A DNA stretch of 64,000 bases. Origin: a virus. The position numbers were made by a program, and so were the translations under genes. The notes under the pieces were generated by a model that ran no database searches, was not told where the DNA came from, and saw nothing but the letters and a program-made list of their open reading frames with translations. Shown piece after piece: positions 6,358 to 36,030 of the stretch. The number at the start of each line of letters is the position of its first letter. Positions within the stretch are counted from its first letter, which is position 1. The stretch lies in IMG/VR virus record IMGVR_UViG_3300037502_002729, positions 43,343-107,342 of that record, one strand, 5' to 3'.

Positions 6358-6369
6358 ATTAAAAATACA

Positions 6370-6747: not shown

Positions 6748-6764
6748 TTTAAATTAAAAATAAA

Positions 6765-8018: not shown

Positions 8019-8040
8019 AAGGGGGTCAATTGACCCCCTT
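8019..8040. terminator. Perfect 22-bp palindrome at the junction of convergent genes
   Basis: AAGGGGGTCAATTGACCCCCTT, overlapping the Clp ATPase stop codon. Confidence 0.6.
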
Positions 8041-22771: not shown

Positions 22772-22823
22772 TGAATTAAGAGAAATGGTAAAACCAGATG
22801 GTTATGTAGGTAAAATATATTAA
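22767..22823 (+). pseudogene. Orphan C-cap remnant of a deleted LRR-like paralog
   Basis: Reads DNELREMVKPDGYVGKIY* with no N-cap or modules, directly after the stop of paralog 4. Confidence 0.75.
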
Positions 22824-22824
22824 A

Positions 22825-23415
22825 ATGGAAAAAGAAACACTAAAAAGAATATTTCAATTCCTTGAAGAAAAGGAAGAACATAGTGCACCATTATTATGGA
22901 AACATAAAAATAATATGCAAATAACAAAAGAAGAGTTGAATTTTAAAGGTGACTTACATTTAGAAAATTCACCAATAACCTCCTTGCCAGATGGGTTGAA
23001 AGTTGAGGGTGATTTGATGTTAACCTTTTCAAAAATAGCCTCATTACCAGATGATTTGCAAGTTGGGGGTGATTTAAATATAATTGGTTGTGAAGCCATA
23101 ACCTCATTACCAAAAGGATTAAAAGTTGGCAAAGGCATACAATTATATGCAAAAAGAATAGTTTCCATTGGGGAAGGATTATTTGTTAATGGAGATTTAA
23201 ATTTATTTAATAGTCAAATAAAATCATTACCCCAAGGTGTTAAAATTGTGGGGGAGTTAGTTTTATCCTTTACAAAAATAGAAACATTACCAAAAGGTTT
23301 GATAGTTAAAGGTGGTTTGGAGATTTCTGGATCACCATTAGAAAAATATTCAAATAGACAATTAAGAAAAATGGTTGAACCTGGATTTATAAATGGTCCA
23401 ATAGTTAGAGATTAG
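22825..23415 (+). CDS. LRR-like repeat family paralog 5 (array 2; 6 modules)
   Basis: Same cap-module-cap architecture. Confidence 0.9.
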   Translation: MEKETLKRIFQFLEEKEEHSAPLLWKHKNNMQITKEELNFKGDLHLENSPITSLPDGLKVEGDLMLTFSKIASLPDDLQVGGDLNIIGCEAITSLPKGLKVGKGIQLYAKRIVSIGEGLFVNGDLNLFNSQIKSLPQGVKIVGELVLSFTKIETLPKGLIVKGGLEISGSPLEKYSNRQLRKMVEPGFINGPIVRD

Positions 23416-23418
23416 ATA

Positions 23419-23892
23419 ATGGAAAAAGAGAAGTTAAAAAGAATATTTGAGTTCCTTGAAGATAAGGAAAATCTAAACCCCCCATTCTTGTGGAAATGGA
23501 AAAATAATATACCATTAATAGAAGAAGATTCAAATGTTAAAGGTGATTTGAATTTAGCATTTTCAAAAATAAGATTTTTACCAGAAGGTTTGAAAGTTGC
23601 TGGTGATTTGGATTTGCAAGATTCATATGTGAAATCATTACCAAAAGGATTGGAAGTTGGTGGTGTTTTGAATTTAATAGGTACTTATATGACAACATTA
23701 CCAGAAGGATTGAAAGTTGGGGGTAGTTTGAATATAGCACATTCAACTATATTATCACTACCAAAAGGATTGGAAGTTGGAGGTGATTTATATATTAATG
23801 GCACAAAATTAACAAAATATACAAAAAACCAATTAAGAGAAATGGTTAAACCTGGATTTATAAAAGGAAAAATATATACAGGATATGAATAA
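23419..23892 (+). CDS. LRR-like repeat family paralog 6 (array 2; 4 modules)
   Basis: Same architecture. Confidence 0.9.
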   Translation: MEKEKLKRIFEFLEDKENLNPPFLWKWKNNIPLIEEDSNVKGDLNLAFSKIRFLPEGLKVAGDLDLQDSYVKSLPKGLEVGGVLNLIGTYMTTLPEGLKVGGSLNIAHSTILSLPKGLEVGGDLYINGTKLTKYTKNQLREMVKPGFIKGKIYTGYE

Positions 23893-24544
23893 AGAATCTC
23901 TAAAAAGGATATTTGATTTCCTTGAAGCCCAAGAGAATAAAACACCCAATTCCAAAGGAAACCTTAGATGGAAATTAATTTTCAATGAACCATTAACAGA
24001 AGAAGAATTGACTGTTGATGGTGATTTGAATTTAAATAATACACCCTTAACCTCATTACCAAAAGGATTAAAAGTTAGGGGTTATTTGAGTTTATCAAAC
24101 ACAAAAATAACCTCATTACCAGAAGATTTGAAAGTTGTTGGTAGTCTATATTTGGATCATAGCTTTATAAAATCATTACCAAAGGGATTAAAATTTGGGG
24201 GTGATTTTCATTTAGCACATTCTAAAATAACCTCATTACCAGAAGGATTGAAAGTTAATCATAGCTTGTATTTAAATGATTGTGAAGATTTAATCTCACT
24301 ACCAAAAGGATTAAAAGTTGGTGGTTGGTTGAAATTACCAAATACAAAGATAACCTCATTACCAGAAGACTTGGAGGTTGGTGGATCTTTGAATTTACGT
24401 TTTTGCACAGAATTAACTTCATTACCAAAAGGATTGAAAGTTGGTGGTGATTTGTATATTCGTGGAGCGTATTTATCAAAATATACAGATGAAGAATTAA
24501 GAGAAATGATTAAACCTGGATTTATAAAAGGAGAAATATATTGA
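23885..24544 (+). CDS. LRR-like repeat family paralog 7 (array 2; 7 modules)
   Basis: Same architecture; shares the KTP..KGNLRWK N-cap type with paralog 4. Confidence 0.9.
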   Translation: MNKESLKRIFDFLEAQENKTPNSKGNLRWKLIFNEPLTEEELTVDGDLNLNNTPLTSLPKGLKVRGYLSLSNTKITSLPEDLKVVGSLYLDHSFIKSLPKGLKFGGDFHLAHSKITSLPEGLKVNHSLYLNDCEDLISLPKGLKVGGWLKLPNTKITSLPEDLEVGGSLNLRFCTELTSLPKGLKVGGDLYIRGAYLSKYTDEELREMIKPGFIKGEIY

Positions 24545-24546
24545 TA

Positions 24547-25011
24547 ATGGAAAAAGAGAAGTTAAAAAGAATATTTGAGTTTCTTGAAGAGAAGGGAGAA
24601 CATAGATTACCACTTAAATGGAAATTAATAAATAATATATCATTAATAGAAGATGATTTAAATGTTAAAGGTGATTTAGACTTTTCATATTTAGATATAG
24701 CCTCATTACCAGAAGGATTGAAAGTTGTAGGTGATTTATCTTTAAGAGGTTCAAAAATAATCTCACTACCAGAAGGATTAGAAGTTGGTGGTGATTTGAT
24801 GTTATATAAATCAGCAATTGAATCATTGCCAAAAGATTTGATAGTTGGGGGTGGTTTGAGTGTAGCATATTCAAGTATATTCTCACTACCAAAAGGATTG
24901 GAAGTTGGAGGTGATTTATATATTCATGGAACAGATTTAACAAAATATACAAAACGACAATTAAGAGAAATGATAAAACCAGGTTTTATAAAAGGTAGAA
25001 TATATGACTAA
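24547..25011 (+). CDS. LRR-like repeat family paralog 8 (array 2; 4 modules)
   Basis: Same architecture; C-terminal part is near-identical to paralog 6. Confidence 0.9.
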   Translation: MEKEKLKRIFEFLEEKGEHRLPLKWKLINNISLIEDDLNVKGDLDFSYLDIASLPEGLKVVGDLSLRGSKIISLPEGLEVGGDLMLYKSAIESLPKDLIVGGGLSVAYSSIFSLPKGLEVGGDLYIHGTDLTKYTKRQLREMIKPGFIKGRIYD

Positions 25012-25094
25012 CAGAAATACAAAAACTAAAAATAATATTTGATTTAAACTAAAAAAATAACTATATTTACACAAACAAATAAAAAACAATACCT

Positions 25095-25304
25095 ATGGAT
25101 GAAAAATTCTTTGTTGCAAAACTAACTTTTAATTTACCAGATGAAAACACTGGCAAATTAAAAAAAATAAGAGAAGAAAAATTGGTGAAGGGTTATTCTG
25201 TAACAGATGTGGAAGCCAAAATAACTGAAAAGTATCAAAATTTCACACAAGAATGGAGAATAACTGCTGTGTCTGAATCAAAAATTGATGAAGTTTTCCA
25301 ATAA
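25095..25304 (+). CDS. Small protein, DUF4494-like
   Basis: FVAKL...TGKLKKIREEKLVKGYSVTDVEAKI resembles Bacteroidota-phage DUF4494 proteins (recalled, not searched). Confidence 0.55.
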   Translation: MDEKFFVAKLTFNLPDENTGKLKKIREEKLVKGYSVTDVEAKITEKYQNFTQEWRITAVSESKIDEVFQ

Positions 25305-25325
25305 AAACTAATTGTTTTTCCTTTT

Positions 25326-25357
25326 AAACCCCTAGCATTTTATGTTGGGGGTTTTTT
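25326..25357 (+). terminator. Intrinsic terminator
   Basis: AAACCCCTAGCAT-ttt-ATGTTGGGGGTTTTTT. Confidence 0.75.
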
Positions 25358-25432
25358 GTTTTTAAAAAAAAATACTACTAATTAGTATTTTTTTGCATTT
25401 GCATATATTTATAATAAAAATAAATAAAAATT

Positions 25433-27028
25433 ATGCAACCTGAAAAAAATTTAGTAGAAGAAGCACTAATTCAAATGAAACAAATTGAAGATGTGCTTTC
25501 AGAAAATGCAAAAGGAATACTTTCTTCAACAATGAAGGAAGAAATCGAAGAATTGGTTAAGGAATCTTTAAATGAGCAAGAAGATATTGAAGATGATGAC
25601 ACTAATTTAGATATGGAAGATGATGTAGAAGATATGGAGGATGAAATGGATATAGAGGATGAAGATGAACTAGATATAGAGGATGAGGATGAAATGGATA
25701 TGGAAGATGACAATGATGTCATTGACATGAGGGGATCTTCAGAACAAGAATTATTAAAAGTATTTAAAGCAATGGATGATGAAGATGGTATTATTGTTAG
25801 TAAAGATGGTGATGACATTTCTTTAACTGATGATGATAATGAATATTTAATAAGATTGGGTGAACAAATAAGTGAGTTTGGTGATGAGGATTATGAAGAT
25901 GAGGATGAAATGGAAATGGATTTTGAAGATGAGGATGAAATGGAAATGGATTTTGAAGATGAGGATGAAATGGATATGGGTTTTGAAGATGAAATGGAAA
26001 TGGATGGTGATTATGATGATGAAATGGGTGAAATGTATGAAGATGACACTCAATCAACCATTGATAAAATTTTTGAAAGAACTAATACCAAAAAATCTAA
26101 TATCATTTATGAAATTGAAGTAGATGAGCAAATTGATTTGGATGATGAAGATGAGTTTGATATGGAAGATGATATGGATATGGAAAATGATATGGATATG
26201 GAAGATGATTTAAACAACATTGAAGTTGATTGTGATAATTTTTCAGTTAGTGATTTCATAAAAGAACATGGAATTAAAGACGCTTCAAAAATATTAAAAG
26301 TATTAGAAAATAATGGATGCGTAGCAAGTAAAGGTGAAACATCAGAAGATTATAATTATTTAGGTGAGGCTAAAAAGGCTTCCAAATTTAAGTATAATAT
26401 GCCTAAAAATGGTTTTAATGAAAAAATGAAAGAAGGTCCTAAAAAAATGGGGACAGGAAAAGCTAAGTTTAACTATGATAAATCTGCTGCAAATGTTGAT
26501 GGTAAGATGAAAAAAGTTAATACTGGTAAAAAACAAGAAACCAAAGAAGCATCAAGAACTTATGGTATGGGAAGCAAAGCAGGTAGAGGCCTTAGAAAAG
26601 GTATAACACCAAATAGAAACATTACATATGAATCCCTAGAAGCAGAAATTTCTCAATTAAAACAAAAAAATAATGAATATAAAAAATCATTAAATGTATT
26701 TAGGGATAAATTAAATGAAGTTGCTGTGTTTAATGCAAATTTAGCATATGCAACAAGATTGTTCACTGAACACTCAACAACTAAAAAAGAAAAAATAAAC
26801 ATTTTGAGACGTTTTGATAATGTTCAATCACTACAAGAATCAAAACAATTGTTTAATGCAATAAATAGTGAATTGTCAAAAGAAACAAATACGTCTTTAA
26901 ATGAGTCTGTTAATCGCAAAATTTCAAATGTTGCATCAACAGGTTCATCTGCTAACTTGATTGAATCCAAGACTTATGAAAATCCTCAATTTTTGAGAAT
27001 GAAAGATTTAATGGGTAAATTAGGTTAA
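25433..27028 (+). CDS. Putative prohead scaffolding/core protein (very acidic, C-terminal coiled coil)
   Basis: Directly upstream of the major capsid gene; D/E/M-rich; many L/I-x-E sites. Confidence 0.7.
   Translation: MQPEKNLVEEALIQMKQIEDVLSENAKGILSSTMKEEIEELVKESLNEQEDIEDDDTNLDMEDDVEDMEDEMDIEDEDELDIEDEDEMDMEDDNDVIDMRGSSEQELLKVFKAMDDEDGIIVSKDGDDISLTDDDNEYLIRLGEQISEFGDEDYEDEDEMEMDFEDEDEMEMDFEDEDEMDMGFEDEMEMDGDYDDEMGEMYEDDTQSTIDKIFERTNTKKSNIIYEIEVDEQIDLDDEDEFDMEDDMDMENDMDMEDDLNNIEVDCDNFSVSDFIKEHGIKDASKILKVLENNGCVASKGETSEDYNYLGEAKKASKFKYNMPKNGFNEKMKEGPKKMGTGKAKFNYDKSAANVDGKMKKVNTGKKQETKEASRTYGMGSKAGRGLRKGITPNRNITYESLEAEISQLKQKNNEYKKSLNVFRDKLNEVAVFNANLAYATRLFTEHSTTKKEKINILRRFDNVQSLQESKQLFNAINSELSKETNTSLNESVNRKISNVASTGSSANLIESKTYENPQFLRMKDLMGKLG
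25891..26004 (+). repeat. 30-bp in-frame tandem repeat (FEDEDEMEMD)
   Basis: About 3.5 copies of TTTTGAAGATGAGGATGAAATGGAAATGGA. Confidence 0.85.
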
Positions 27029-27055
27029 AAAATAAATAAAAAAATAAATAAAAAA

Positions 27056-28828
27056 ATGGGAGCATTATTAGAATCAGGTCTTGTTGGTAATATTGGGTTA
27101 AAACACCTAAAAGTTATCAAAGAAGATACTATTAACAAATGGAATAAATTAGGATTCCTTGAAGGTCTTAAAGGCCACCTAAAAGAGAATGTTGCACAGT
27201 TGTATGAAAACCAAGCATCATATCTTATCAATGAAGCTGCTAGTACATCTGATACTGGTGCATTTGAAACAGTTGTTTTCCCAATTGTGAGGAGAGTATT
27301 CTCTAAATTATTGGCTAATGATATTGTTTCTGTACAAGCAATGAACTTACCTATTGGTAAATTGTTCTTCTTTGTGCCACAAATTCAAGAATATAATGGT
27401 ACAGAGCATTGGGCACCTTATGGTTCACCAAATGCTGTAGATGGTCAAACTCCAAGTACTGGTTATACATCAACAGCAAAAAATCTATATGATAGATTTT
27501 ATGAGGGTACTGAGCCAGGTTTAAATCCAGAAGGACTTTATGATTATTCAAGAGGTCAATATAGTGAAATAACTGCAAGTGCAACAACTGTTATATGGAG
27601 TGATGGTCAATTAATCCCAGGTGAATATTCTGGTAATAATAGAAAAGTTTTATTAGTTATGTCAGGTTTTTCTAGTGATGGTGCTGGAAAATTGATTGGA
27701 CCCGAAGGTCAACCAATGGATACAGAAACATTCTTAGCTAGTTTACAAGTGTTAGGTGTTACAGGAAATGCAACAACATCAGCTAATACATCAAATCCAT
27801 ATTTATTTAGAGTTGTTACTCAAAAATATGGAAAAGGTATTGTTCAATATGGTGCAGATAATACATTAGCTTTCCCTGGTTCTAAAACAGCTGGTGGAAC
27901 ATTCTATGATGTTTGTGATTCTGTTGGTCATATATACTTAGAAGTTGATTTACAAGTACCAGTTGAAATTGGTCAAACTTCACTTGATGGTTATACTGGT
28001 TCAACAATTACATCAACAACTGCTGCAGGTAATGCTTTTGTTACAAAATATAAAATTTATAAGAATTTAGAATTTGAAGATAAAATTGGTGAGGTTTCTT
28101 TTGATTTACAATCTGTTACAGTTTCTGTGACTGAAAGAAAATTAAGAGCTCAATGGTCACCAGAAATGGCACAAGATGTTGCTGCATTCCACAATATTGA
28201 TGCTGAAGCAGAATTAACTGCTTTATTGTCAGAGCAAATTGCAGCTGAAGTTGATAGAGAAATTCTTCGTGATCTTAGAAAAGGTGCTGCTTGGAACTTA
28301 CGTTGGGATTATAATGGATGGAGAAAACTTGGTTCTGCTGCAATTCCTTATACTCAAAAAGATTGGAATCAAACATTGATTACAACAATCAACCAAGTAT
28401 CAGCACAAATTCACAAATCAACACTAAGAGGTGGTGCAAACTGGATTGTTGTTTCTTCTGAAGTAAGTGCAGTTTTTGATGATTTGGAATACTTCCACGT
28501 ATCAAATGCTTCACCAGAGCAAGACCAATACAATATGGGTATTGAAAGAGTTGGTACATTAGCTGGTCGTTACCAAGTGTATCGTGATCCTTACTTCCCA
28601 GCAAACCAAATTTTGATGGGACACAAAGGAACATCTTTACTTGACACAGGTTATATCTATGCGCCTTATGTACCTCTACAATTAACTCCAACAATGTATA
28701 ACCCATTCAACTTTACACCAATTAAAGGTATAATGACAAGATATGCTAAAAAGATGGTTAATAACCGTTTCTATGGCCGTATCACAGTTGATGGTGTTAG
28801 AACATTTGACTTAAGAGAGTTAAGATAA
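27056..28828 (+). CDS. Major capsid protein (T4 gp23-like)
   Basis: FPIVRRVF..L.ANDIVSVQAM, RKLRAQWSPEMAQD, GYIYAPYVPL, FTPIKGIMTRY. Confidence 0.97.
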   Translation: MGALLESGLVGNIGLKHLKVIKEDTINKWNKLGFLEGLKGHLKENVAQLYENQASYLINEAASTSDTGAFETVVFPIVRRVFSKLLANDIVSVQAMNLPIGKLFFFVPQIQEYNGTEHWAPYGSPNAVDGQTPSTGYTSTAKNLYDRFYEGTEPGLNPEGLYDYSRGQYSEITASATTVIWSDGQLIPGEYSGNNRKVLLVMSGFSSDGAGKLIGPEGQPMDTETFLASLQVLGVTGNATTSANTSNPYLFRVVTQKYGKGIVQYGADNTLAFPGSKTAGGTFYDVCDSVGHIYLEVDLQVPVEIGQTSLDGYTGSTITSTTAAGNAFVTKYKIYKNLEFEDKIGEVSFDLQSVTVSVTERKLRAQWSPEMAQDVAAFHNIDAEAELTALLSEQIAAEVDREILRDLRKGAAWNLRWDYNGWRKLGSAAIPYTQKDWNQTLITTINQVSAQIHKSTLRGGANWIVVSSEVSAVFDDLEYFHVSNASPEQDQYNMGIERVGTLAGRYQVYRDPYFPANQILMGHKGTSLLDTGYIYAPYVPLQLTPTMYNPFNFTPIKGIMTRYAKKMVNNRFYGRITVDGVRTFDLRELR

Positions 28829-28880
28829 TTAAAATGTCCACTTTTTTTACTAAAAAACTGGACATTTTAAAGGATAATAG

Positions 28881-28912
28881 AAAGGGTTGCAAGGTTTTGC
28901 AACCCTTTTTTT
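28881..28912 (+). terminator. Intrinsic terminator after the capsid gene (a second inverted repeat lies at 28829-28870)
   Basis: AAAGGGTTGCAA-ggtt-TTGCAACCCTTTTTTT. Confidence 0.85.
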
Positions 28913-28995
28913 AATATCTTTTCCCATAGAGGTGAATATAGTTTATATATTATAGAAAAAAACATAATAGTTTTATATTTATAAATAAAAAAATT

Positions 28996-29349
28996 ATGGA
29001 AAACAAGCCATCATTTATAAATGAGGATCTTGCTGTTTGGTTTGGGACAAAGAAGAAACCAAAAGGTAGCAACCAACCCAAAGGACCCTGGGTTAATATA
29101 TGTAGAAAAGATTCAAGTGGTAAACATCCGCCTTGTGGAAGGGAGTCAGATAGTAAAGGGGGTTATCCAAAATGTAGAGCAGCAGGTGTTGCTGGAAAGA
29201 TGAGTGATGCAGAAAAAAAAGCTGCCTGTGCCAAAAAGAGGAGTGCTGAAAAAAAGAACCCAAAATCTGGAACAGGCAACAAACCAACAATGGTTTCAAA
29301 TGAAAGTATTGAAAGAATTATTTTAAAAGTTCTAAAAGATTTTCAGTAG
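28996..29349 (+). CDS. Small basic Cys-containing protein (possible internal head protein)
   Basis: INE-DL..WF...PCGR...YPKCR; lysine-rich. Confidence 0.75.
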   Translation: MENKPSFINEDLAVWFGTKKKPKGSNQPKGPWVNICRKDSSGKHPPCGRESDSKGGYPKCRAAGVAGKMSDAEKKAACAKKRSAEKKNPKSGTGNKPTMVSNESIERIILKVLKDFQ

Positions 29350-30217
29350 AACTATTAATAGTTTCTAAAATACATGAATTTGCAAAAGAACAATTTGCTA
29401 TCTGTTCATTTTCATATTTTCCATTTTTTTTGAGTTTTCTTTTTGTAATATCTCTCATTGACATAGAGTAAATACAAGTAGTTGATTCAATCCCATTTTC
29501 AATTTCTGTCAATAAGAATGAAATATAAGTGTATTGTTTTGGGCAAACATATATCTCAATATTTATTTCACTATTCAATGGAATACTTGAGAAGTCTAAT
29601 TTTTTAAAAACAAATTCATTGCCATCTCTATATACAAAAATTTTTGTTTTACTAATTTCATATTTAGATTCAAGTATAGTCACTTTTTCATTAAAAGCAT
29701 ATCCTATCTCTAATAATAGGATTATATGTATCATTTGTTGAACAGTAATGGTTTTTACAACTTTTGGAGTACTATATGTCTTAAATATTTGTGTTAAATT
29801 TTTAGTTAAAATGCAATTATATAAATCTTGAAAAATAGGATCAATCTTGTTTAAAAAGTAAAAAAGGGGGTATTTTATATTTGAATCCATAGTTTTAAAA
29901 AGAGTAGCATTATCATAAATGTTTGGTAAATGCATATCACTTCTTGCATTAAGGTAATTTTTTGCCTCAATAATATATATTATATTATTTAGAATAGAAA
30001 TATAATCACCTCTTATTGCAGATGCTATACGACTATTAGGCATTATGGTTTTTGTAGTATTTTTAAATTGTTTGTGGAAAGATTTTCTTATCTTAGTAAT
30101 ACCATCTTTTGAATCAAAATTAGTGATTTCATCATCACTTAATCCATTAGTATTCTGCAAGTAATTTAAGATTTCTTTTTGGTTAACTTTCCAAGGAATA
30201 TTTTTACTTTTACCCAT
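29318..30217 (-). CDS. Hypothetical protein, possible PD-(D/E)xK nuclease
   Basis: RGDYIS...IIEAKNY. Preceded by a TATCTTTG -7 box at 30236-30243. Confidence 0.55.
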   Translation of the reverse strand: MGKSKNIPWKVNQKEILNYLQNTNGLSDDEITNFDSKDGITKIRKSFHKQFKNTTKTIMPNSRIASAIRGDYISILNNIIYIIEAKNYLNARSDMHLPNIYDNATLFKTMDSNIKYPLFYFLNKIDPIFQDLYNCILTKNLTQIFKTYSTPKVVKTITVQQMIHIILLLEIGYAFNEKVTILESKYEISKTKIFVYRDGNEFVFKKLDFSSIPLNSEINIEIYVCPKQYTYISFLLTEIENGIESTTCIYSMSMRDITKRKLKKNGKYENEQIANCSFANSCILETINSSTENLLELLK

Positions 30218-30302
30218 TTTATTTTCTTGTTTATGCAAAGATATAAAAAAAATAATTAAATACAAAAAAAATATCACTTATTTAAGTGATATTTTTTAAA
30301 CA

Positions 30303-30680
30303 TTAAAAACTTTCAACCTTCACTAAGAAATTTTCTTTTAGGTAATTTGATAAATCATAGAATATATCAAATTTTGATGCCATCTTGTCATCAAAAGCCT
30401 TCACTATTTCCAAATGCGTGTTTTGGTGGGAAATAAAAAATTTAAACACCTCATATTCATATATGATACAAACATCTCTATCAATAATATTGATATAAAT
30501 GTTATCCTCCTCAAGATATACCAATCTTTCTGGGGATTTTGATGAATATGCTAATTTTGCATCAGGATGATTAATTAGTTTAAGACATATATTCTTGCAA
30601 CGTATGTCATCTTCTGATGGATCAACCATTGCTAAAATATTTTGCTTAAATGAAGCAATCAAATCATTTAATAGTTTCAT
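30303..30680 (-). CDS. Hypothetical protein (host-sigma promoter upstream)
   Basis: ORF with TTTG-N19-TATATTTG upstream. Confidence 0.75.
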   Translation of the reverse strand: MKLLNDLIASFKQNILAMVDPSEDDIRCKNICLKLINHPDAKLAYSSKSPERLVYLEEDNIYINIIDRDVCIIYEYEVFKFFISHQNTHLEIVKAFDDKMASKFDIFYDLSNYLKENFLVKVESF

Positions 30681-30701
30681 AGTTTTTATTTTGTTTCACT
30701 G

Positions 30702-30732
30702 CAAATATACAACAAAATTTCATAAAAACAAA
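30702..30732 (-). promoter_or_regulatory. Bacteroidota -33/-7 promoter
   Basis: TTTG at 30732-30729, 19-nt spacer, TATATTTG at 30709-30702. Confidence 0.6.
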
Positions 30733-31155
30733 TCACTCTTTCTTCCACTTTCCACCTAATTGCTTATAACGTTTTGCTGCTGCACCATTGCAATATGCAC
30801 TAGGACATACCTTATATCTTGATTTTGCCCAACTTAAACATTGACTCCATAATTTTGGATTTTTGGGTTTGTTCTTTTTGGCTTTAGCTTCTGTTAAATT
30901 TTGGTCATCATTCTCATTGAATTCATTCATCATAAAATCAAATACTTGATCCATATTTTCTTTTGCAACACTAATGTGGTCATCAGCCCAATCATGCCCA
31001 TTTTTTATTAACTCATTCACCTCATCTGGTTGCAGTTCAAGCAATAATTCACATTGTCTTTTTATTTGTTTTAAATTACCAAAGAACATATAGTTTTCAG
31101 TTGCTTGTTCCTTTATGGCAGTTTCAATAATTCTTTTAATTCTTGGATTAATCAT
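30733..31155 (-). CDS. Hypothetical protein with C-terminal PSAY..G...YK..GG.W domain (DUF5872-like)
   Basis: KPKNPKLW...PSAYCNGAAAKRYKQLGGKW. Confidence 0.6.
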   Translation of the reverse strand: MINPRIKRIIETAIKEQATENYMFFGNLKQIKRQCELLLELQPDEVNELIKNGHDWADDHISVAKENMDQVFDFMMNEFNENDDQNLTEAKAKKNKPKNPKLWSQCLSWAKSRYKVCPSAYCNGAAAKRYKQLGGKWKKE

Positions 31156-31311
31156 ATTAATTTTTATTTATAAATATCATTAAGGTCTATTTTGATTAAG
31201 GCTTCCATATTTTGATTTTAAGATACTTTTTGTTTTAGCCTATTACTATGTCATATTTATTAAAATCTATTGTCTTGGTTAAATTGTATGTGGTTAAATG
31301 GGATTTAATGA

Positions 31312-31851
31312 CTATATCTTAATTATTCCTTTTATATATCCAGGTTTAACCATTTCTCTTAATTCATCATTAGAAAAATTGCCTAAACTATCCTCAGTAC
31401 TTATATTTAAGTAGCGATTAACTATTAACCCTTTTGGTAACTTATTTATTGGTGTATTCATTATTCCTAACCAACCATCAATGACTAGCCCTTCTGGTAG
31501 TGAAGTTATTTTTGTATTATGTAAATACAAAGAATTACCAATTTTAATATCATGTGGTATGTTTTTTATGTTGGAGTGGGATAAATACAAACTACCACCA
31601 ACTTTCAACCCTTTTGGCAATTCTTCTATTTTTGAAAATCTAGTCTGCATATCACCTTTAACTTCCAAATTATCTGGCAATGATTTTAATGTTGAATCTG
31701 TTAAATCCAAATCACCATTAACAACTAAATCATCTTTTGTTAGGGGTTCATTAAATTTTAATTTCCAAATAAAGTTATCTCTATCTTTATGTTTTTTCTT
31801 TTCTTTCTTCTCAAAAAAATCAAATATTTTTCTTATTGTTTCTTTTTCCAT
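31312..31851 (-). CDS. LRR-like repeat family paralog 18 (array 3; 5 modules)
   Basis: Same architecture; first ~100 codons are near-identical to 33054-33650. Confidence 0.9.
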   Translation of the reverse strand: MEKETIRKIFDFFEKKEKKKHKDRDNFIWKLKFNEPLTKDDLVVNGDLDLTDSTLKSLPDNLEVKGDMQTRFSKIEELPKGLKVGGSLYLSHSNIKNIPHDIKIGNSLYLHNTKITSLPEGLVIDGWLGIMNTPINKLPKGLIVNRYLNISTEDSLGNFSNDELREMVKPGYIKGIIKI

Positions 31852-32471
31852 TATCTAAATATTTTACCTTCAAATTTTCCCCCATTTAAATTTTTATTAC
31901 TTCTTATTTCTTCATCTGTATATTTTTTGGCAAGGGGGGTGTTTCTTATGCCTATATCTCGTCTAACATATAAATTATTTGGAAAATCTTCTATTTGTGT
32001 AGAAATAATACCAAAATTACCTCCAACGTATAAATTATCTGGAAGTTCTTTTATTTTTACACAATCAGATAAATTTAAACTACCCCCAACATATAATTCA
32101 CTTGGGAGTTTTATTAATTCTTCACAAGAATCCAAATCTAAATAATCATCCACATATATTTTATCTGGGAGTTTTGTTATATTTAAACCTGCTAAATCTG
32201 CCCAACCTTCAACACGTAAATCACCTGAAAGTTCTTTTAAATTTTTACAATCTTTCACCATCAAATAACCCTTAACATTAAATTTATTTGGTAATTTTTT
32301 TATAGGCATTTCGTATAAATACAAATTATCATTATGTGTAAATTGAACATCATCAGGATAATTTTCTAGGTCATACATTAGGTTAAGTTTTCTTAACTTA
32401 ATATAGGAGGGGACTTTATTTTCTTTCTTTTTAATAAAATCAAGTATCTTTTTTATTGTTTTTATTTCCAT
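31851..32471 (-). CDS. LRR-like repeat family paralog 17 (array 3; divergent, Cys-containing modules)
   Basis: MEIKTIKKILDF N-cap; LPSELYVGGSLNLSDC modules. Confidence 0.85.
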   Translation of the reverse strand: MEIKTIKKILDFIKKKENKVPSYIKLRKLNLMYDLENYPDDVQFTHNDNLYLYEMPIKKLPNKFNVKGYLMVKDCKNLKELSGDLRVEGWADLAGLNITKLPDKIYVDDYLDLDSCEELIKLPSELYVGGSLNLSDCVKIKELPDNLYVGGNFGIISTQIEDFPNNLYVRRDIGIRNTPLAKKYTDEEIRSNKNLNGGKFEGKIFR

Positions 32472-32475
32472 CTTC

Positions 32476-33054
32476 TTAATATATGCTCCCATTTATGTAT
32501 CCAGGATGAATCATTTTTGCAATTTCATCATCATCAAGTTTATATATGGATGTTCCATAAACATGTAAATCTCCACCAACTATTAAGCCTTTTGGTAAGG
32601 ACTTTAAGTTTTTACAATTTCTTAAATTTAAATCACCACCAACTTCTAATCCTTCTGGCAATGATTCTATTTTTGAATGTTTTAAAACTAAATTATAATC
32701 AACTTTCAAACCTTTTGGTAATTTAGTTATTTCTGTACCACCTAAATCCAAACCTTCAACTTCCAAATCCTCTGGTAATGATTTTATTCTTGAACTAGCT
32801 AAAAATAAACCCCTAACTTTCAATCCTTTTGGCAATGAAGTTATGCTTGATTCATAAAGGTATAAATTACCATCAACATTTAACCCTTCTGGTAATGAGG
32901 TAATTTCTATTCTTTCTAAATCCAAATCACCTTTAACATTTAATTCTTCTTTGGTTAATGGGATATTATTTAATAATTTCCATTTAAATGGTGCATTATG
33001 CCCTTCCTTCTCTTCAAGGAACTCAAATATTCTTTTTAATTGTTCTTTTTCCAT
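32476..33054 (-). CDS. LRR-like repeat family paralog 16 (array 3; 6 modules, two shortened)
   Basis: Same architecture. Confidence 0.9.
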   Translation of the reverse strand: MEKEQLKRIFEFLEEKEGHNAPFKWKLLNNIPLTKEELNVKGDLDLERIEITSLPEGLNVDGNLYLYESSITSLPKGLKVRGLFLASSRIKSLPEDLEVEGLDLGGTEITKLPKGLKVDYNLVLKHSKIESLPEGLEVGGDLNLRNCKNLKSLPKGLIVGGDLHVYGTSIYKLDDDEIAKMIHPGYINGSIY

Positions 33055-33650
33055 TATCTTATTATGTCTCCTTTTATAAATCCAGGTTTAATCATTTCTC
33101 TTAATTCATTATTTGTGTATTCTAATAATGCTGTATTTTTAATAATCAACTCACCTTTAACTTCTAACCCTTTTGGTAATGAAGTTATTTTTGAACGCTG
33201 TAAATGCAAAATATCACCAACTTTCAACCCTTCTGGTAATGATTCTATATCTGCAAAAACTAAACTTAAACTACCACCAACTTTCAATCCTTTTGGTAGT
33301 GAAGTTATTTTTGTATTGTGTAAATACAAAGAATTACCAATTTTAATATCATCTGGTATGTTTTTTATCCTAGAGTAGGATAAATCCAAAGTACCACCAA
33401 CTTTCAAGCCTTTTGGTAATTCTTCTATTCTTGAAAATCTAGTAAGCATACCACCTTTAACTTCCAAATTATCTGGCAATGATTTTAATGTTGAATCTGT
33501 TAAATCCAAATCACCATTAACAACTAAATCTTCTTTGGTTAGGGGTTCATTAAACTTTAATTTCCAAATAAAGTTATCTCTATCTTTATGTTTTTTCCCT
33601 TCCTTTTCTTCAAGGAATTCAAATATTCTTTTTAATTGTTCTTTTTCCAT
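33054..33650 (-). CDS. LRR-like repeat family paralog 15 (array 3; 6 modules)
   Basis: Same architecture. Confidence 0.9.
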   Translation of the reverse strand: MEKEQLKRIFEFLEEKEGKKHKDRDNFIWKLKFNEPLTKEDLVVNGDLDLTDSTLKSLPDNLEVKGGMLTRFSRIEELPKGLKVGGTLDLSYSRIKNIPDDIKIGNSLYLHNTKITSLPKGLKVGGSLSLVFADIESLPEGLKVGDILHLQRSKITSLPKGLEVKGELIIKNTALLEYTNNELREMIKPGFIKGDIIR

Positions 33651-34057
33651 TATTTAAATATTTTTCCTTTTATAAAGCCAGGTTTAATCATTTCCTTTAT
33701 TTCATCCTTTGAGTAATGTATTAATGGAGTTCTATTAATAATAATATCCCCCCCAACTTTCAATCCTTTTGGTAAATCTTTGATGAATTTACAACTATCC
33801 AAAAACAAATCACCCTTAACTTCCAATCCATCTGGCAATGAGGATATAGTTGAAAATAGCAAATCCAAATCACCCCCAACTTTCAACCCTTCTGGTAATG
33901 AGTTTATTTCAATAGACCTTAAATCTAAATCACCTTTAACATTTAAATCTTCTTTGGTTAATGGGATATTATTAAATAATTTCCATTTAAATGGTGCATT
34001 ATGCCCTTCCTTTTCTTCAAGAAACTCAAATATTCTTTTTAATGCTTCTTTTTCCAT
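33650..34057 (-). CDS. LRR-like repeat family paralog 14 (array 3; 3 modules)
   Basis: Same architecture. Confidence 0.9.
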   Translation of the reverse strand: MEKEALKRIFEFLEEKEGHNAPFKWKLFNNIPLTKEDLNVKGDLDLRSIEINSLPEGLKVGGDLDLLFSTISSLPDGLEVKGDLFLDSCKFIKDLPKGLKVGGDIIINRTPLIHYSKDEIKEMIKPGFIKGKIFK

Positions 34058-34521
34058 TATCTAAATATTATTCCTTTTATAAACCCAGGTTCAATCATTT
34101 CCCTTAATTCTTCATCTGTGTATTCTAATAATGCTGTCTTTTTAATATATAAATTAGCACCAACTTCCAATCCTTTTGGTAAGGAGGTTATTTTTGTATT
34201 TATTAAATCCAACCAAAACCTAACTTTCAAGCCTTTTGGTAATGAGGTTATTTTTGTATTATATAAATTCAAATAACCACCAACTTTCAAATCTTCTGGT
34301 AATGAGGTTATATTTGTATCTCTTAAACTCAAAAACCCACTAACTTTCAATCCTTCTGGTAATGATGTTATATTTGTTTTATTTAAAAATAAACTACCTT
34401 TAATATTTAAATCACCTTCTGTTAATGGTATATTATTAAATAATTTCCATTTAAATGGTGCTCTATTCTCTCCTTTCTCTTCAAGGAATTCAAATATCCT
34501 TTTTAGTTTTTCTTTTTCCAT
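34057..34521 (-). CDS. LRR-like repeat family paralog 13 (array 3; 4 modules)
   Basis: Same architecture. Confidence 0.9.
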   Translation of the reverse strand: MEKEKLKRIFEFLEEKGENRAPFKWKLFNNIPLTEGDLNIKGSLFLNKTNITSLPEGLKVSGFLSLRDTNITSLPEDLKVGGYLNLYNTKITSLPKGLKVRFWLDLINTKITSLPKGLEVGANLYIKKTALLEYTDEELREMIEPGFIKGIIFR

Positions 34522-34919
34522 TATCTTATTATGTCTCCTTTTATAAATCCAGGCTTTATCATATCTCTTAATTCTTCATTAGTATAATCTTCTAATGGAG
34601 TATTTCTAATAAATAAACTACGCCCAACTTTCAAACCTTTTGGTAATAAGGTTATTTTTGTATTATATAGACTTAAATCATCACCAACTTTCAATCCTTC
34701 TGGCAGTGAAGTTATACTTGAGTTGTCTAAATACAAAGTACCCTTAACTTCCAATCCATTTGGCAATGATGTTATATTTGATAATTGCAAATCACCATTA
34801 ATTTCCAAATCTTCTTTTCTTAATGGCATATTAGTTTTCAACTTCCACACAAGTGGTTGGTTAAGATTTTCCTTTGTTTTAAGGAACTCAAATATTCTTT
34901 TTATTTTTTCTTTTTCCAT
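34521..34919 (-). CDS. LRR-like repeat family paralog 12 (array 3; 3 modules)
   Basis: Same architecture. Confidence 0.9.
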   Translation of the reverse strand: MEKEKIKRIFEFLKTKENLNQPLVWKLKTNMPLRKEDLEINGDLQLSNITSLPNGLEVKGTLYLDNSSITSLPEGLKVGDDLSLYNTKITLLPKGLKVGRSLFIRNTPLEDYTNEELRDMIKPGFIKGDIIR

Positions 34920-35623
34920 TATCTAAATATTTCTCCTTCTATATATCCAGGTTTTACCATTTCTCTTAATTGGTCATCTGTGTATTTTCTTAATATGCTT
35001 TTTTCTATATATAATTTTCCATAAACTTTCAAACCTTTTGGCAATGAGGTTATATTTGTATCTCTTAAATACAAACCTCCACCAACTTCCAATCCATTTG
35101 GCAATGAGGTTATATTTGTATGTGATAAAGTCAAATAACCACCAACTTTCAATCCTTCTGGCAATGAGGTTATTTTTGAACTGGTTAAACCCAAATTACC
35201 ATTAACTTTCAATCTTTCTGGCAATGAGGTTATTTTTGTATTCTCTATATGCAAAGAACCCCCAACTTTCAAACCTTTTGGTAGTGAGTTTATATCCGCA
35301 TATGATAAATTCAAAGAACCACCAACTTGTAAATCATCTGGTAATGAGATTATTTTTGAAAAGGTTAACATCAAATCACCATCAACTTTTAAACCTTCTG
35401 GTAATGAGGTTATGTTTGAATTAGTTAAATATAAATCACCACCAACTTTCAAACCTTCTGGCAATGAGGTTATATTTGCGTGTCTTAAACTCAAATCACC
35501 TTTAACATTTAAATCTTCTTTTGCTATTGGCATAGCCAATTTAATCTTAACTGGTAATGGTATAATGTGTTCTCCTTTCTCTTCAAGAAACTCAAATATT
35601 CTTTTTAGTTTTTCTTTTTCCAT
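34919..35623 (-). CDS. LRR-like repeat family paralog 11 (array 3; 8 modules)
   Basis: Exact 60-bp periodicity is visible at 35041-35500. Confidence 0.9.
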   Translation of the reverse strand: MEKEKLKRIFEFLEEKGEHIIPLPVKIKLAMPIAKEDLNVKGDLSLRHANITSLPEGLKVGGDLYLTNSNITSLPEGLKVDGDLMLTFSKIISLPDDLQVGGSLNLSYADINSLPKGLKVGGSLHIENTKITSLPERLKVNGNLGLTSSKITSLPEGLKVGGYLTLSHTNITSLPNGLEVGGGLYLRDTNITSLPKGLKVYGKLYIEKSILRKYTDDQLREMVKPGYIEGEIFR

Positions 35624-36027
35624 TATCTATATATTTCTCCTTTTATAAATCCAGGTTTAATCATTTCCCTTAATTCTTCAGCTGAATATTTTATTAATGC
35701 ACTATCATCAATATATAAATTTCTTCCAACTTCCAATCCTTTTGGTAAAAACTTTATATCTGTTTCAATTAAATCCAAATGACCACCAACTTTTAGTCCT
35801 TCTGGTAAATACTCTATAAATGTATAGGCTAAATCAAGCCAACCACTAACTTGCAATCCTTCTGGTAAGGTTTCAACTCCTGTATTACTTAAATCCAAAT
35901 CACCTTTAACATTTAAATCACCTTCTGTTAATGGTATATCATTTTTATACTTCCATAAGAATGGTGCATTATGTTCTTCCTTCTCTTCAAGGAATTCAAA
36001 TATTCTTTTTAGTGCTTCTTTTTCCAT
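35623..36027 (-). CDS. LRR-like repeat family paralog 10 (array 3; 3 modules)
   Basis: Same architecture. Confidence 0.9.
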   Translation of the reverse strand: MEKEALKRIFEFLEEKEEHNAPFLWKYKNDIPLTEGDLNVKGDLDLSNTGVETLPEGLQVSGWLDLAYTFIEYLPEGLKVGGHLDLIETDIKFLPKGLEVGRNLYIDDSALIKYSAEELREMIKPGFIKGEIYR

Positions 36028-36030
36028 TAT

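What the first reader, a model, noticed from the sequence alone, without database searches (positions are those of the whole stretch)
23008..35380. Modules are shuffled between paralogs, including across arrays on opposite strands
Seen: 23008-23037 (+, GGTGATTTGATGTTAACCTTTTCAAAAATA) is the exact reverse complement of 35351-35380, and similarity continues through SLPDDLQVGG, yet the two genes have different caps and different neighbouring modules. Other shared segments: paralogs 6 and 8 share a near-identical last module and C-cap. Paralogs 4 and 7 share an N-cap. Genes 34057 and 36031 share KVSGFLxLRxTNITSLPxDLKVGG. Genes 32476 and 33650 share an N-cap and first module. Inference: the conserved TCATTACCA(G/A)AAGG-TT-AAAGTTGG framework provides homology for gene conversion or unequal crossover, producing combinatorial diversity without a dedicated enzyme in this window.
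Basis: partly seen in the sequence, partly recalled or inferred. Interest (0 to 1): 0.8.

Follow-up and report, generated by a model that had tools for sequence, protein, structure and literature searches.

The report
Recombining LRR gene cassettes in jumbo phage
A large T4-like phage carries dozens of small leucine-rich-repeat genes in tandem arrays, and ordinary homologous recombination at their conserved ends and repeat framework reshuffles these genes and parts of them, which is a real but mechanistically familiar way to diversify a gene family.

Summary
The 30-base reverse-complement match is exact and lies in a 60-nt module (56/60 identical) shared by gene C2 (22825-23415, +) and gene D3 (34919-35623, -), whose flanks differ.

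The genes are capped 20-residue leucine-rich-repeat (LRR) proteins. There are 23 paralogs in four arrays on this 107-kb phage contig, and about 40 in a 270-kb close relative.

Mosaicism is real:
- N- and C-terminal parts give conflicting relationships.
- Close relatives carry the same cassettes in different order and number.
- Clean crossover switches map to N-cap coding nt ~16-75 at four array-D junctions and nt 1-49 at one array-C junction.
- Some chimeras break inside the conserved module framework.

No reverse transcriptase, integrase or resolvase was found. The relative encodes a UvsX-like recombinase, so general homologous recombination is the likely agent.

- The commonest mapped crossover site is the N-cap 5' end, not the module framework.
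- The flagship module exchange is old, because it is shared by orthologs in several independent assemblies.
- Exact nucleotide runs alone are weak evidence, because codon choice is nearly fixed at each position.
- Two of the "shared cap" claims are only loose.

Function is unknown; variable intracellular binders is an inference. The scan had already noted this family on the same genome, not on other DNA.

The parts
5953..7175 (+). Array B: three paralogs. B1 is 5953-6357, B2 is 6370-6747 and B3 is 6765-7175.
   Evidence: They have the same N-cap and 2-3 modules. The first 44 nt of B3 are identical to those of D7.
21992..25011 (+). Array C: five paralogs. C1 is 21992-22771, C2 is 22825-23415, C3 is 23419-23892, C4 is 23885-24544 and C5 is 24547-25011. 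The array lies between the prohead protease gene (21277-21978) and the acidic scaffold-like gene and the major capsid protein (MCP) gene.
   Evidence: Relative G001 has x-C2-C5 here.
31312..36432 (-). Array D: ten translationally coupled paralogs, listed in order of transcription. D1 is 36031-36432, D2 is 35623-36027, D3 is 34919-35623, D4 is 34521-34919, D5 is 34057-34521, D6 is 33650-34057, D7 is 33054-33650, D8 is 32476-33054, D9 is 31851-32492 and D10 is 31312-31851.
   Evidence: G001 has D3-D7-D4-D8-D9-D10 and G003 has y-y-D3-D6-D8-D10.
23011..23070 (+). Module C2:M2, the rare 'LTF...DLQV' module type.
   Evidence: The module is present in the C2 orthologs of at least 6 assemblies.
35318..35377 (-). 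Module D3:M3, the counterpart of C2:M2 on the opposite strand. It matches at 56/60 nt and 19/20 aa.
   Evidence: It is identical in the D3 orthologs of G001 and G002 and differs by 3 nt in G003.
33294..33597 (-). D7 copy of the multi-module block shared with D10, running from N-cap nt ~54 to the middle of M4.
   Evidence: 304 nt, 94.4%; 79 nt exact; in G001 the two copies differ by 1 nt in about 265.
31495..31798 (-). D10 copy of the block shared with D7. D10 is the ancestral carrier, because its full-length ortholog is present in the distant relative L019.
32917..33144 (-). Junction-spanning tract [D7 C-cap | D8 N-cap + start of M1]. It is duplicated at 33920-34147.
   Evidence: 228 nt, 91.7%.
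33920..34147 (-). Junction-spanning tract [D5 C-cap | D6 N-cap + start of M1]. It is the partner of 32917-33144.
24478..24602 (+). Junction tract [C4 C-cap | C5 N-cap]. It is 93.6% identical to the reverse complement of 35568-35692 ([D2 C-cap | D3 N-cap]).
   Evidence: This is the clearest long cross-array, opposite-strand tract.
35568..35692 (-). Junction tract [D2 C-cap | D3 N-cap]. It is the partner of 24478-24602.
33031..33039 (-). Crossover interval J1 against G001. It lies in the D8 N-cap at gene nt 16-24.
   Evidence: G001 switches cleanly from the D8/D7 context to the D5/D4 context.
34880..34904 (-). Crossover interval J2 against G001. It lies in the D4 N-cap at gene nt 16-40.
33611..33618 (-). 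Crossover interval J3 against G001. It lies in the D7 N-cap at gene nt ~33-40. This junction is less clean than the others.
35578..35588 (-). Crossover interval J4 against G001. It lies in the D3 N-cap at gene nt ~36-46 and could extend to about nt 75.
23415..23467 (+). The first 49 nt of the C3 N-cap. This is the overlap zone of the C3-C4 presence/absence difference against G001. Its partner is 24543-24595 in C5.
   Evidence: the matching blocks overlap by 53 nt.
36187..36246 (-). Module D1:M2. It matches D5:M2 (34276-34335) at 56/60 nt.

Best explanation
The region belongs to a lineage-specific, greatly expanded family of small cytoplasmic capped leucine-rich-repeat (LRR) proteins in a T4-like jumbo phage.

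**Anatomy.** Each gene has three parts:
- 2-9 modules of 20-21 residues, with a fixed hydrophobic and proline framework and six hypervariable positions;
- a conserved C-cap.

**How it works.**
- The genes sit head-to-tail in operon-like arrays.
- They share three islands of nucleotide homology: the first ~50 nt of the N-cap, part of the C-cap, and the 3' half of every module.
- General homologous recombination acts on these islands. The likely agent is the phage's own UvsX-type recombinase. This step is inferred.
- It produces unequal crossovers, gene conversion tracts and exchanges between co-infecting relatives.
- The outcome is gain, loss and reordering of whole gene cassettes, multi-module blocks copied between paralogs, and intragenic chimeras.
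- The C2:M2/D3:M3 match is an old example of such a shared piece, lying between arrays in inverted orientation.

**What is shown and what is inferred.**
- Shown: mosaic structure, crossover positions, absence of dedicated diversification enzymes, and the LRR fold.
- Inferred: which recombinase acts, how often, and that the variable faces bind diverse targets inside the host.
For: **Family and fold**
- 23 paralogs lie in 4 arrays.
- The AF2 model has pLDDT 94.6 and is an LRR solenoid.
- Foldseek and profile searches hit Vibrio FlrP (8z5u, E 7e-37) and the IpaH, SspH and SlrP LRR domains.
- Hypervariable positions are 1, 3, 5, 6, 8 and 10 of the module.

**Within-genome mosaicism**
- High-identity tracts stop abruptly and often span gene junctions.
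- In the N-versus-C triplet test, 26 triplets have p<1e-5 against 0.05 expected.
- In the quartet test, 13 quartets have p<1e-5 against 0.07 expected.
- The PHI test (pairwise homoplasy index for recombination) is significant for N-cap+M1 (p about 0.001) and for the 4-module genes.
- Only 9 of 82 adjacent module pairs have collinear nearest neighbours.

**Comparative evidence**
- Close relatives carry orthologous cassettes (93-99% aa) in different order and number.
- Informative sites show clean parent-1 to parent-2 switches inside N-cap nt ~16-75 at four array-D junctions.
- The array-C breakpoint is placed only by a 53-nt overlap of matching blocks at N-cap nt 1-49.
- Differences between orthologs concentrate in the caps.
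- A2 against its G001 counterpart is 95-100% identical in the 3' half and about 75% in the 5' half. The switch lies in the module framework.
- The D7/D10 block differs by 1 nt in G001 and by 16 nt in the window.

**Enzymes**
- G000 and G001 have no RT, tyrosine recombinase or serine recombinase.
- G001 encodes a UvsX-like recombinase.

**Homology islands**
- Mean pairwise identity is 0.82-0.89 in N-cap nt 1-36 and 0.74 in the module 3' half, against 0.58 in the module 5' half.
Against: - The window's own gene order rests on one short-read assembly.
- PHI is not significant for the C-caps or the 3-module genes.
- Synonymous-site tests give no significant module pair.
- Part of the triplet and quartet signal could come from accelerated divergence of the D10 and D8 C-caps and from long-branch attraction.
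- A2:M1 and C1:M8 share 55 nt exactly, but both are near-consensus modules, so that case is weak.
- Intragenomic conversion cannot be separated from exchange between phages.
- No recombinase was found in the 107-kb contig itself, which is only 35% complete.
Confidence: 0.8

Rival explanations
1. Plain duplication and divergence without exchange. On this view the patchy similarity reflects unequal rates, retention of near-consensus modules and strong codon bias.
For: - Codon choice is nearly fixed at each position, so identical peptides give near-identical DNA.
- Several 'shared' modules are near-consensus.
- C3 and C5 are simply close paralogs over their whole length.
- PHI is not significant in some partitions.
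Against: - Identity steps abruptly from 94% to about 60% in D7/D10.
- A2 against its G001 counterpart is 95-100% identical in one half and about 75% in the other.
- Clean crossover switches separate two genomes.
- Cassette order differs among relatives.
- The quartet test shows incongruence.
Confidence: 0.06
2. Assembly artefact. On this view the short-read assembler jumped between paralogs at shared k-mers and created chimeric genes and false gene orders.
For: - The arrays are repetitive.
- The window's order is unconfirmed by any other contig.
- Read mapping was not possible.
Against: - G001 and G002 come from different samples and have the same arrays at the same offsets.
- D3 with its M3 module recurs in G001, G002 and G003, and C2 with its M2 module recurs in at least 6 assemblies.
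- The longest exact repeat between paralogs is 79 nt and most are 56 nt or less. By my own knowledge, that is shorter than usual read lengths and final k-mers.
- A short internal patch with both flanks different cannot be made by a single graph jump.
Confidence: 0.04
3. A dedicated or programmed diversification system. Candidates are a diversity-generating retroelement (DGR), shufflon-type site-specific recombination at the N-cap sequence, or copy-choice assembly like that of lamprey variable lymphocyte receptors (VLR).
For: - Crossovers cluster in one short conserved sequence at the start of every gene.
- The variability sits at ligand-binding positions.
- The capped-LRR architecture resembles that of the VLRs (one search hits VLR B weakly).
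Against: - G000 and the 90%-complete G001 have no RT, tyrosine recombinase or serine recombinase.
- Every gene is a complete ORF with both caps. There is no incomplete 'germline' gene flanked by capless cassettes.
- Crossover points are spread over about 10-60 nt of homology rather than at one fixed site.
- Differences are not adenine-specific.
Confidence: 0.03
4. The exchange runs mainly between genomes. On this view the cassettes move between co-infecting related phages by homologous recombination at the conserved caps, and paralog-to-paralog conversion within one genome is minor.
For: - Cassettes are 97-99% identical in nt between the window and G001 (C5 99.4, D9 99.1, A5 99.3). Neighbouring core genes are 86-93% identical (portal 86.4, capsid region about 93).
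- Orthologous cassettes are interleaved with non-orthologous ones.
- 77 of 80 phages with a related capsid gene lack arrays next to that gene.
Against: - D7 and D10 of one genome are nearly identical over about 265 nt in G001.
- In G000 the tract [A2 C-cap|A3 N-cap] is duplicated at [A3 C-cap|A4 N-cap], 189 nt at 95.8%.
- Both observations point to events within one genome as well.
- This is a variant of the best explanation rather than a true alternative.
Confidence: 0.35

Closest known systems
Tandem LRR multigene families that evolve by unequal crossing-over and gene conversion (plant NLR/R-gene clusters, Listeria internalins); own knowledge
   Same: - Tandem paralogs share a conserved repeat framework, and variability sits at solvent-exposed LRR positions.
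- Copy number and repeat number vary between relatives.
- Chimeric genes have breakpoints in conserved tracts.
- The exchange depends on general recombination.
   Different: - The carrier is a bacteriophage.
- The genes are tiny (125-259 aa) LRR-only proteins with their own N- and C-caps.
- They are translationally coupled in operons.
- The main crossover site is the first ~50 nt of each gene.
Modular shuffling in hyperplastic regions of T4-type phage genomes (PeSL cassettes, Arbiol et al. 2010, cited from memory) and boundary-sequence mosaicism in lambdoid phages
   Same: - The host genome is T4-like.
- Small accessory genes are exchanged as cassettes between related phages.
- The exchange uses short conserved sequences that flank each cassette.
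   Different: - Here the linker is coding sequence (the N-cap 5' end and the C-cap), not an intergenic promoter/stem-loop.
- The genes overlap by 1-4 nt and have no intergenic spacer.
- All cassettes belong to one protein family.
Lamprey/hagfish variable lymphocyte receptors (VLR)
   Same: - Both are capped LRR binders.
- Diversity lies in which LRR modules sit between the fixed caps.
- Short framework homologies are used to join modules.
- Profile searches give weak hits to VLR B.
   Different: - VLR assembly is somatic and programmed. It depends on a cytidine deaminase and starts from an incomplete germline gene with capless donor cassettes.
- Here every gene is complete and the shuffling is evolutionary.
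- No dedicated enzyme was found.
Vibrio FlrP, a 20-residue-repeat LRR protein bound to the flagellar rod (PDB 8z5u; bioRxiv 10.64898/2025.12.04.692373)
   Same: It is the same LRR subtype. The profile E-value is 7e-37, with 35% identity, rmsd 1.4 A over 164 columns and TM-score 0.86 on the target.
   Different: - FlrP is a single-copy, Sec-secreted periplasmic structural protein.
- The phage proteins have no signal peptide, have different caps and form a large variable family.
Edwardsiella phage Edno5 gene 0047 and 'Leucine-rich repeat' proteins of uncultured Caudovirales in UniProt/BFVD
   Same: - Both are phage-encoded proteins with the same 20-residue repeat.
- Identity is 43% to Edno5 and 58% to A0A6J7X9U5.
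   Different: Edno5 has one copy, in the early operon of a temperate phage, with unrelated termini. No arrays or mosaicism have been described for it.

Membership tests
Leucine-rich repeat (LRR) superfamily, bacterial 20-residue subtype | Tandem 20-21-residue units with an LxLxx(T/S)xI...LPxxLxV hydrophobic pattern | tested here: met
   Across 90 modules, positions 2, 4, 9, 12, 13, 16 and 18 are nearly invariant.
Leucine-rich repeat (LRR) superfamily, bacterial 20-residue subtype | Curved beta-solenoid fold with one strand per repeat on the concave face | tested here: met
   The AF2 model has pLDDT 94.6 and pTM 0.86. The top Foldseek hits are all LRR proteins.
Leucine-rich repeat (LRR) superfamily, bacterial 20-residue subtype | Significant sequence-profile match to solved LRR proteins | tested here: met
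   FlrP at 7e-37, designed LRRs at 1e-8 to 9e-16, SlrP at 2e-8 and SspH1 at 3e-5.
Leucine-rich repeat (LRR) superfamily, bacterial 20-residue subtype | Pfam LRR model above the gathering score | tested here: not met
   Only sub-threshold LRR_1/4/8/14 hits. DUF5649 passes its cut-off for D3 alone, at 28.5 against 25 bits. The family is not captured by current Pfam LRR models.
Multigene family remodelled by ectopic homologous recombination | Different parts of the genes give conflicting relationships | tested here: met
   Triplet and quartet tests and segment identities.
Multigene family remodelled by ectopic homologous recombination | Breakpoints fall in tracts of shared homology and are seen as parent-to-parent switches against a relative | tested here: met
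   Four junctions in array D, one in array C, and intragenic switches in A2 and in D7/D10.
Multigene family remodelled by ectopic homologous recombination | Copy number and order vary among close relatives | tested here: met
Multigene family remodelled by ectopic homologous recombination | Rearranged molecules can be observed within one population, in reads | not testable with these tools
Diversity-generating retroelement target | A reverse transcriptase gene in the genome | tested here: not met
   PF00078 is absent from G000 and from the 90%-complete G001. The controls were positive.
Diversity-generating retroelement target | A template/variable repeat pair that differs only at adenines | tested here: not met
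   Differences between the shared tracts involve all bases.
Shufflon or other site-specific inversion system | A tyrosine or serine recombinase gene | tested here: not met
   PF00589 and PF00239 are absent from G000 and G001.
VLR-type programmed assembly | An incomplete recipient gene flanked by capless donor cassettes | tested here: not met
   All 23 genes are complete ORFs with an N-cap and a C-cap.
VLR-type programmed assembly | An AID/APOBEC-family deaminase that drives the assembly | not tested
   No search was made. T4-like phages commonly carry an unrelated dCMP deaminase, which would confound a simple domain search.
T4-type capsid-targeted internal proteins | An N-terminal leader shared with other packaged proteins and ending in a prohead-protease site | tested here: inconclusive
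The N-cap helix occurs only on the 23 LRR genes. Array C does lie next to the S77 prohead protease gene. Cleavage and packaging were not tested.

The most novel reading that the evidence does not exclude
The arrays are a phage-encoded, recombination-diversified repertoire of intracellular LRR binders. They would be used against host defence or for host takeover, possibly delivered with or made alongside the virion. On this reading the nearly invariant first ~50 nt of every gene has been retained as a recombination linker. That linker lets populations of related jumbo phages swap and reorder binder cassettes much faster than the rest of the genome evolves. It would be a population-level analogue of antigen-receptor or antigenic-variation cassette systems, run by general recombination alone.
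Probability: 0.2. Interest if true: 0.8.

Novelty: new variant of a known kind. Interest (0 to 1): 0.6.

Why it matters
- **Scale.** About 40 genes, roughly 8% of a 270-kb phage genome, would be devoted to one variable binder family. That points to a major, uncharted layer of phage-host interaction in a widespread environmental phage clade. More than 590 related capsid loci and more than 1400 protein clusters were found.
- **A natural experiment.** The system shows how repeat-protein repertoires diversify using only general recombination. The crossover sites are mapped, and an isolated phage (Edno5) with a distant relative could serve as an entry point.
- **A practical lesson.** In AT-rich repeat families, exact nucleotide matches are weak evidence for recent exchange unless flanks and orthologs are also examined.

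Tried and rejected
- **Synonymous-site test.** A Poisson-binomial test for recent exchange between module pairs had no power, because same-residue codon identity is 0.71 family-wide against 0.42 expected.
- **PHI test.** It gave mixed results on saturated short alignments.
- **Positive selection.** There were too few ortholog differences to test selection at the hypervariable positions: 13 nonsynonymous and 5 synonymous there, against 15 and 10 elsewhere.
- **Capsid-targeting-signal idea for the N-cap.** I kept it only as a low-probability lead.
- **A2:M1 and C1:M8 (55 nt exact).** I first took this as the best single-module case, then down-weighted it because both are near-consensus modules.
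- **Independent assemblies of window-specific junctions.** D5->D6 was scanned in viral and metagenome contigs and D7->D8 in metagenome contigs. Nothing was found.
- **Literature.** Searches found no description of phage LRR multigene families.
- **Complex prediction.** Not used, because there was no defined partner to test.

Full report
**1. Observation**

The 30-mer at 23008-23037 (+) recurs once, as an exact reverse complement, at 35351-35380. It lies in module 2 of gene C2 (22825-23415, +) and in module 3 of gene D3 (34919-35623, -).
- The two modules agree at 56/60 nt and 19/20 residues.
- The preceding modules agree at 46/60 and the following ones at 40/63.
- The N-caps are about 79% identical.

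The other claims hold to different degrees.
- D1 and D5 share the stated motif, with M2 at 56/60.
- D6 and D8 share an N-cap (120/126), but their first modules match only at 46/60.

**2. What the genes are**

The window is the 3' 64 kb of a 107-kb IMG/VR virus record that CheckV rates 35% complete.
- GC content is 28.6%.
- It has a T4-like terminase, portal, S77 prohead protease and major capsid protein.
- It encodes 23 paralogs in four arrays. Arrays B, C and D are in the window. Array A lies 26 kb upstream of it.

Each protein has three parts.
In the model it forms three short helices.
- Between 2 and 9 modules of 20-21 residues.
- A conserved C-cap.

Within the modules, positions 2, 4, 9, 12, 13, 16 and 18 are almost invariant, and positions 1, 3, 5, 6, 8 and 10 are hypervariable. 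By general LRR knowledge the hypervariable positions lie on the concave-face strand and the ascending loop.

The fold is well supported.
- AlphaFold2 gives a confident LRR solenoid (pLDDT 94.6).
- The best solved relative is Vibrio FlrP, a periplasmic 20-residue LRR protein on the flagellar rod (profile E 7e-37).
- The IpaH, SspH and SlrP LRR domains follow.

The phage proteins have no signal peptide. Pfam LRR models do not reach their thresholds. More than 1400 protein clusters in metagenomes are homologous, and all are unnamed.

**3. Is the nucleotide identity meaningful?**

Caution is needed, because codon choice in the modules is nearly fixed at each position.
- For example, Leu at position 2 is TTG, Leu at position 4 is TTA, Ile at position 9 is ATA, Pro at position 13 is CCA and Val at position 18 is GTT.
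- Two modules with the same residue use the same codon 71% of the time, against 42% expected from the phage's own codon usage.
- The same pattern holds in the distant relative L019.

Two consequences follow.
- Identical peptides give almost identical DNA, and no module pair is significant on synonymous sites alone.
- The signal in C2:M2 and D3:M3 is the peptide itself. Only 3 of 4005 module pairs reach 19/20 or more, and this pair uses rare residues.

A second striking pair, A2:M1 and C1:M8 with 55 nt exact, involves near-consensus modules and is therefore weaker.

**4. Mosaicism within the genome**

High-stringency self-comparison gives tracts that stop abruptly.
- D7 and D10 share 304 nt at 94.4%, then drop to about 60%.
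- [D7 C-cap|D8 N-cap] and [D5 C-cap|D6 N-cap] share 228 nt at 91.7%.
- [A2 C-cap|A3 N-cap] and [A3 C-cap|A4 N-cap] share 189 nt at 95.8%.
- [C4 C-cap|C5 N-cap] and the reverse complement of [D2 C-cap|D3 N-cap] share 125 nt at 93.6%.

Statistical tests point the same way.
- With a breakpoint fixed in advance between the N-terminal and C-terminal parts, 26 triplets have p<1e-5 against 0.05 expected.
- Likewise, 13 quartets have p<1e-5 against 0.07 expected. Most of this signal comes from D7, whose N-terminal part is sister to D10 and whose C-cap groups with D4 and D5.
- PHI is significant for N-cap+M1 and for the 4-module genes, but not for the C-caps.
- Only 9 of 82 adjacent module pairs have collinear nearest neighbours.

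**5. Comparative evidence, the decisive part**

Searches with the capsid, D3 and C2 proteins found four useful relatives.
- G001 is 270 kb and 90% complete.
- G002 is 200 kb, from another sample, and has the same arrays as G001.
- G003 is 12.7 kb.
- L019/G004 is a more distant relative, with a capsid protein 82% identical.

G001 has about 40 family genes in about 8 arrays. By contrast, 77 of 80 loci with a related capsid gene have no family member next to it.

Array composition differs between relatives.

| Array | Window / G000 | G001 | G003 |
|---|---|---|---|
| D | D1-D2-D3-D4-D5-D6-D7-D8-D9-D10 | D3-D7-D4-D8-D9-D10 | y-y-D3-D6-D8-D10 |
| C | C1-C2-C3-C4-C5 | x-C2-C5 | not recovered |
| A | A1-A2-A3-A4-A5 | A3-n-A2*-n-A4-A1*-A5 | not recovered |

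Crossover points were mapped against G001.
- At each of the four D-array junctions, G001 switches cleanly from matching one window context to matching another.
- The switches lie at N-cap nt 16-24, 16-40, ~33-40 and ~36-46.
- The C3-C4 presence/absence difference has its overlap zone in N-cap nt 1-49.
- Differences between orthologs pile up in the caps, for example 18 of 22 in the A4 N-cap and 11 of 17 in the A3 C-cap.

Intragenic chimeras exist as well.
- A2 and its G001 counterpart are 95-100% identical from module 5 to the stop codon, but only about 75% before that. The switch lies in the conserved proline-to-glycine framework.
- The 3' edge of the D7/D10 block lies in the same framework. 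The two copies differ by 1 nt in about 265 in G001 and by 16 in the window.
- D3 is identical to its G001 ortholog over nt 64-381 and 7.7% different after that.

Cassettes are also more alike between the two genomes (97-99% nt) than the portal or capsid genes (86-93%). This suggests recent exchange between phage lineages.

**6. History of the flagship module**
- The rare module type is present in the C2 orthologs of at least six distinct contig versions. These include the distant L019 and L073. It is also present in the D3 orthologs of G001, G002 and G003.
- D3:M3 differs from the C2-type copies by 2-5 nt, which is within the spread among C2 orthologs (1-7 nt).
- The upstream modules differ by 9-14 nt.
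- The downstream module of D3 resembles C1:M8 (11 differences), not C2:M3 (about 40 differences).
- D3 is therefore a patchwork of C2-like and C1-like pieces.
- The event predates the split of these phages and cannot be an assembly artefact.
- Whether it was a single-module conversion or an older block whose flanks were later replaced cannot be resolved.

**7. Mechanism**
- G000 and G001 have no reverse transcriptase, tyrosine recombinase or serine recombinase.
- G001 encodes a UvsX-like recombinase. By established knowledge, T4-type phages replicate through recombination.
- The homology islands coincide with the crossover sites. Mean pairwise identity is 0.82-0.89 in N-cap nt 1-36 and 0.74 in the module 3' half, against 0.58 in the variable half.
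- The best account is therefore general homologous recombination. It would include unequal crossover, non-crossover conversion (needed between the inverted arrays C and D) and exchange between co-infecting relatives.

**8. Function (inferred)**
- The proteins are small, cytoplasmic and LRR-only, with hypervariable concave faces. They are embedded in late structural operons.
- Array C starts 14 nt after the prohead protease gene, and array D starts at the stop codon of a 501-aa gene.
- I read them as a repertoire of binders for host or competitor proteins.
- Packaging into the capsid is possible but unsupported.

**9. Caveats**
- The window's own order rests on one assembly. No independent contig with its specific junctions was found.
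- The exact repeats are 79 nt or shorter, which argues against graph tangles.

**10. Comparison with known systems**
- In how it works, this resembles LRR multigene clusters that evolve by ectopic recombination. It also resembles cassette shuffling in the hyperplastic regions of T4-type phages.
- It is not a DGR, a shufflon or a VLR-type system, because their defining features were tested and not met.
- A capped-LRR family of this size in a phage, with the start of each gene serving as the crossover linker, was not found in the searchable literature.

Noticed in passing
window 21992-36432 compared with G001 (L082, L141): The LRR cassettes are 97-99% identical in nt between the window and G001 (C5 99.4, D9 99.1). 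Adjacent core genes are only 86-93% identical (portal 86.4, capsid region about 93, tail-side genes 78-91). This suggests recent lateral exchange of cassettes.
   Followed up: partly
all modules, e.g. window 22951-23313, 34949-35497: Synonymous codon choice is specific to each module position (Leu2 TTG, Leu4 TTA, Leu12 TTA, Leu16 TTG, Ile9 ATA, Pro13 CCA, Val18 GTT, Gly15 GGA, Gly20 GGT). Same-residue codon identity is 0.71 against 0.42 expected, and the distant relative L019 shows the same pattern. Whether the cause is homogenisation, recency or selection at the nucleotide level is unresolved.
   Followed up: partly
window 8026-10038 (-): A ClpB/ClpC-like double AAA+ ATPase (AAA_2 3e-68, ClpB_D2-small) lies 0.85 kb from array B. 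A phage-encoded unfoldase next to a binder family might mean an adaptor-unfoldase relationship. This is pure speculation.
   Followed up: no
window 25433-27028 (+): A 531-aa, extremely acidic protein with tandem Asp/Glu/Met-rich repeats lies between array C and the capsid gene. It has no Pfam or PHROG hit and sits where a scaffold protein would be expected.
   Followed up: no
window 19700-20012 (+), the C-terminal end of the portal gene: The portal protein ends in a Pro/Gly/Met/Asp low-complexity tail, with poly-Pro flanking GGMD repeats. This is unusual for portal proteins.
   Followed up: no
window 31851-32492 (-), gene D9: D9 is a divergent subfamily. It has its own N-terminus, 20/21-residue modules with Cys, and a different C-cap ending. 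It has two tandem orthologs in L019 (12814-13757) and is 99% conserved in G001.
   Followed up: partly
C1:M6, C2:M3, C4:M5/M7, D6:M3, D8:M6 in the window; A2:M9, A3:M5, A4:M4 outside it: A 21-residue, Cys-containing module subtype is often the last module before the C-cap (A2, A4, C4, D6, D8). This hints at a semi-fixed pre-cap module, as in other capped LRR proteins.
   Followed up: no
loci L001-L080: At least 596 IMG/VR stretches encode a capsid protein related to this one, and the 80 kept are 75-83% identical to it. This is a very widespread environmental phage clade, yet only 3 of the 80 loci have LRR genes beside the capsid gene.
   Followed up: partly
L158 (Edwardsiella phage Edno5, MH898687.1 26924-27667): An isolated temperate phage carries one gene with eight near-perfect copies of the same 20-residue repeat. 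The gene lies in the early operon between the CI repressor gene and exo/RecT, and its termini are unrelated. It could serve as a cultivable model.
   Followed up: partly
L073 427-1734 and L019 1010-1771: Some relatives have longer family members (253-435 aa). In these, runs of standard modules are interrupted by a repeated insert of about 45 residues that is not LRR-like.
   Followed up: no
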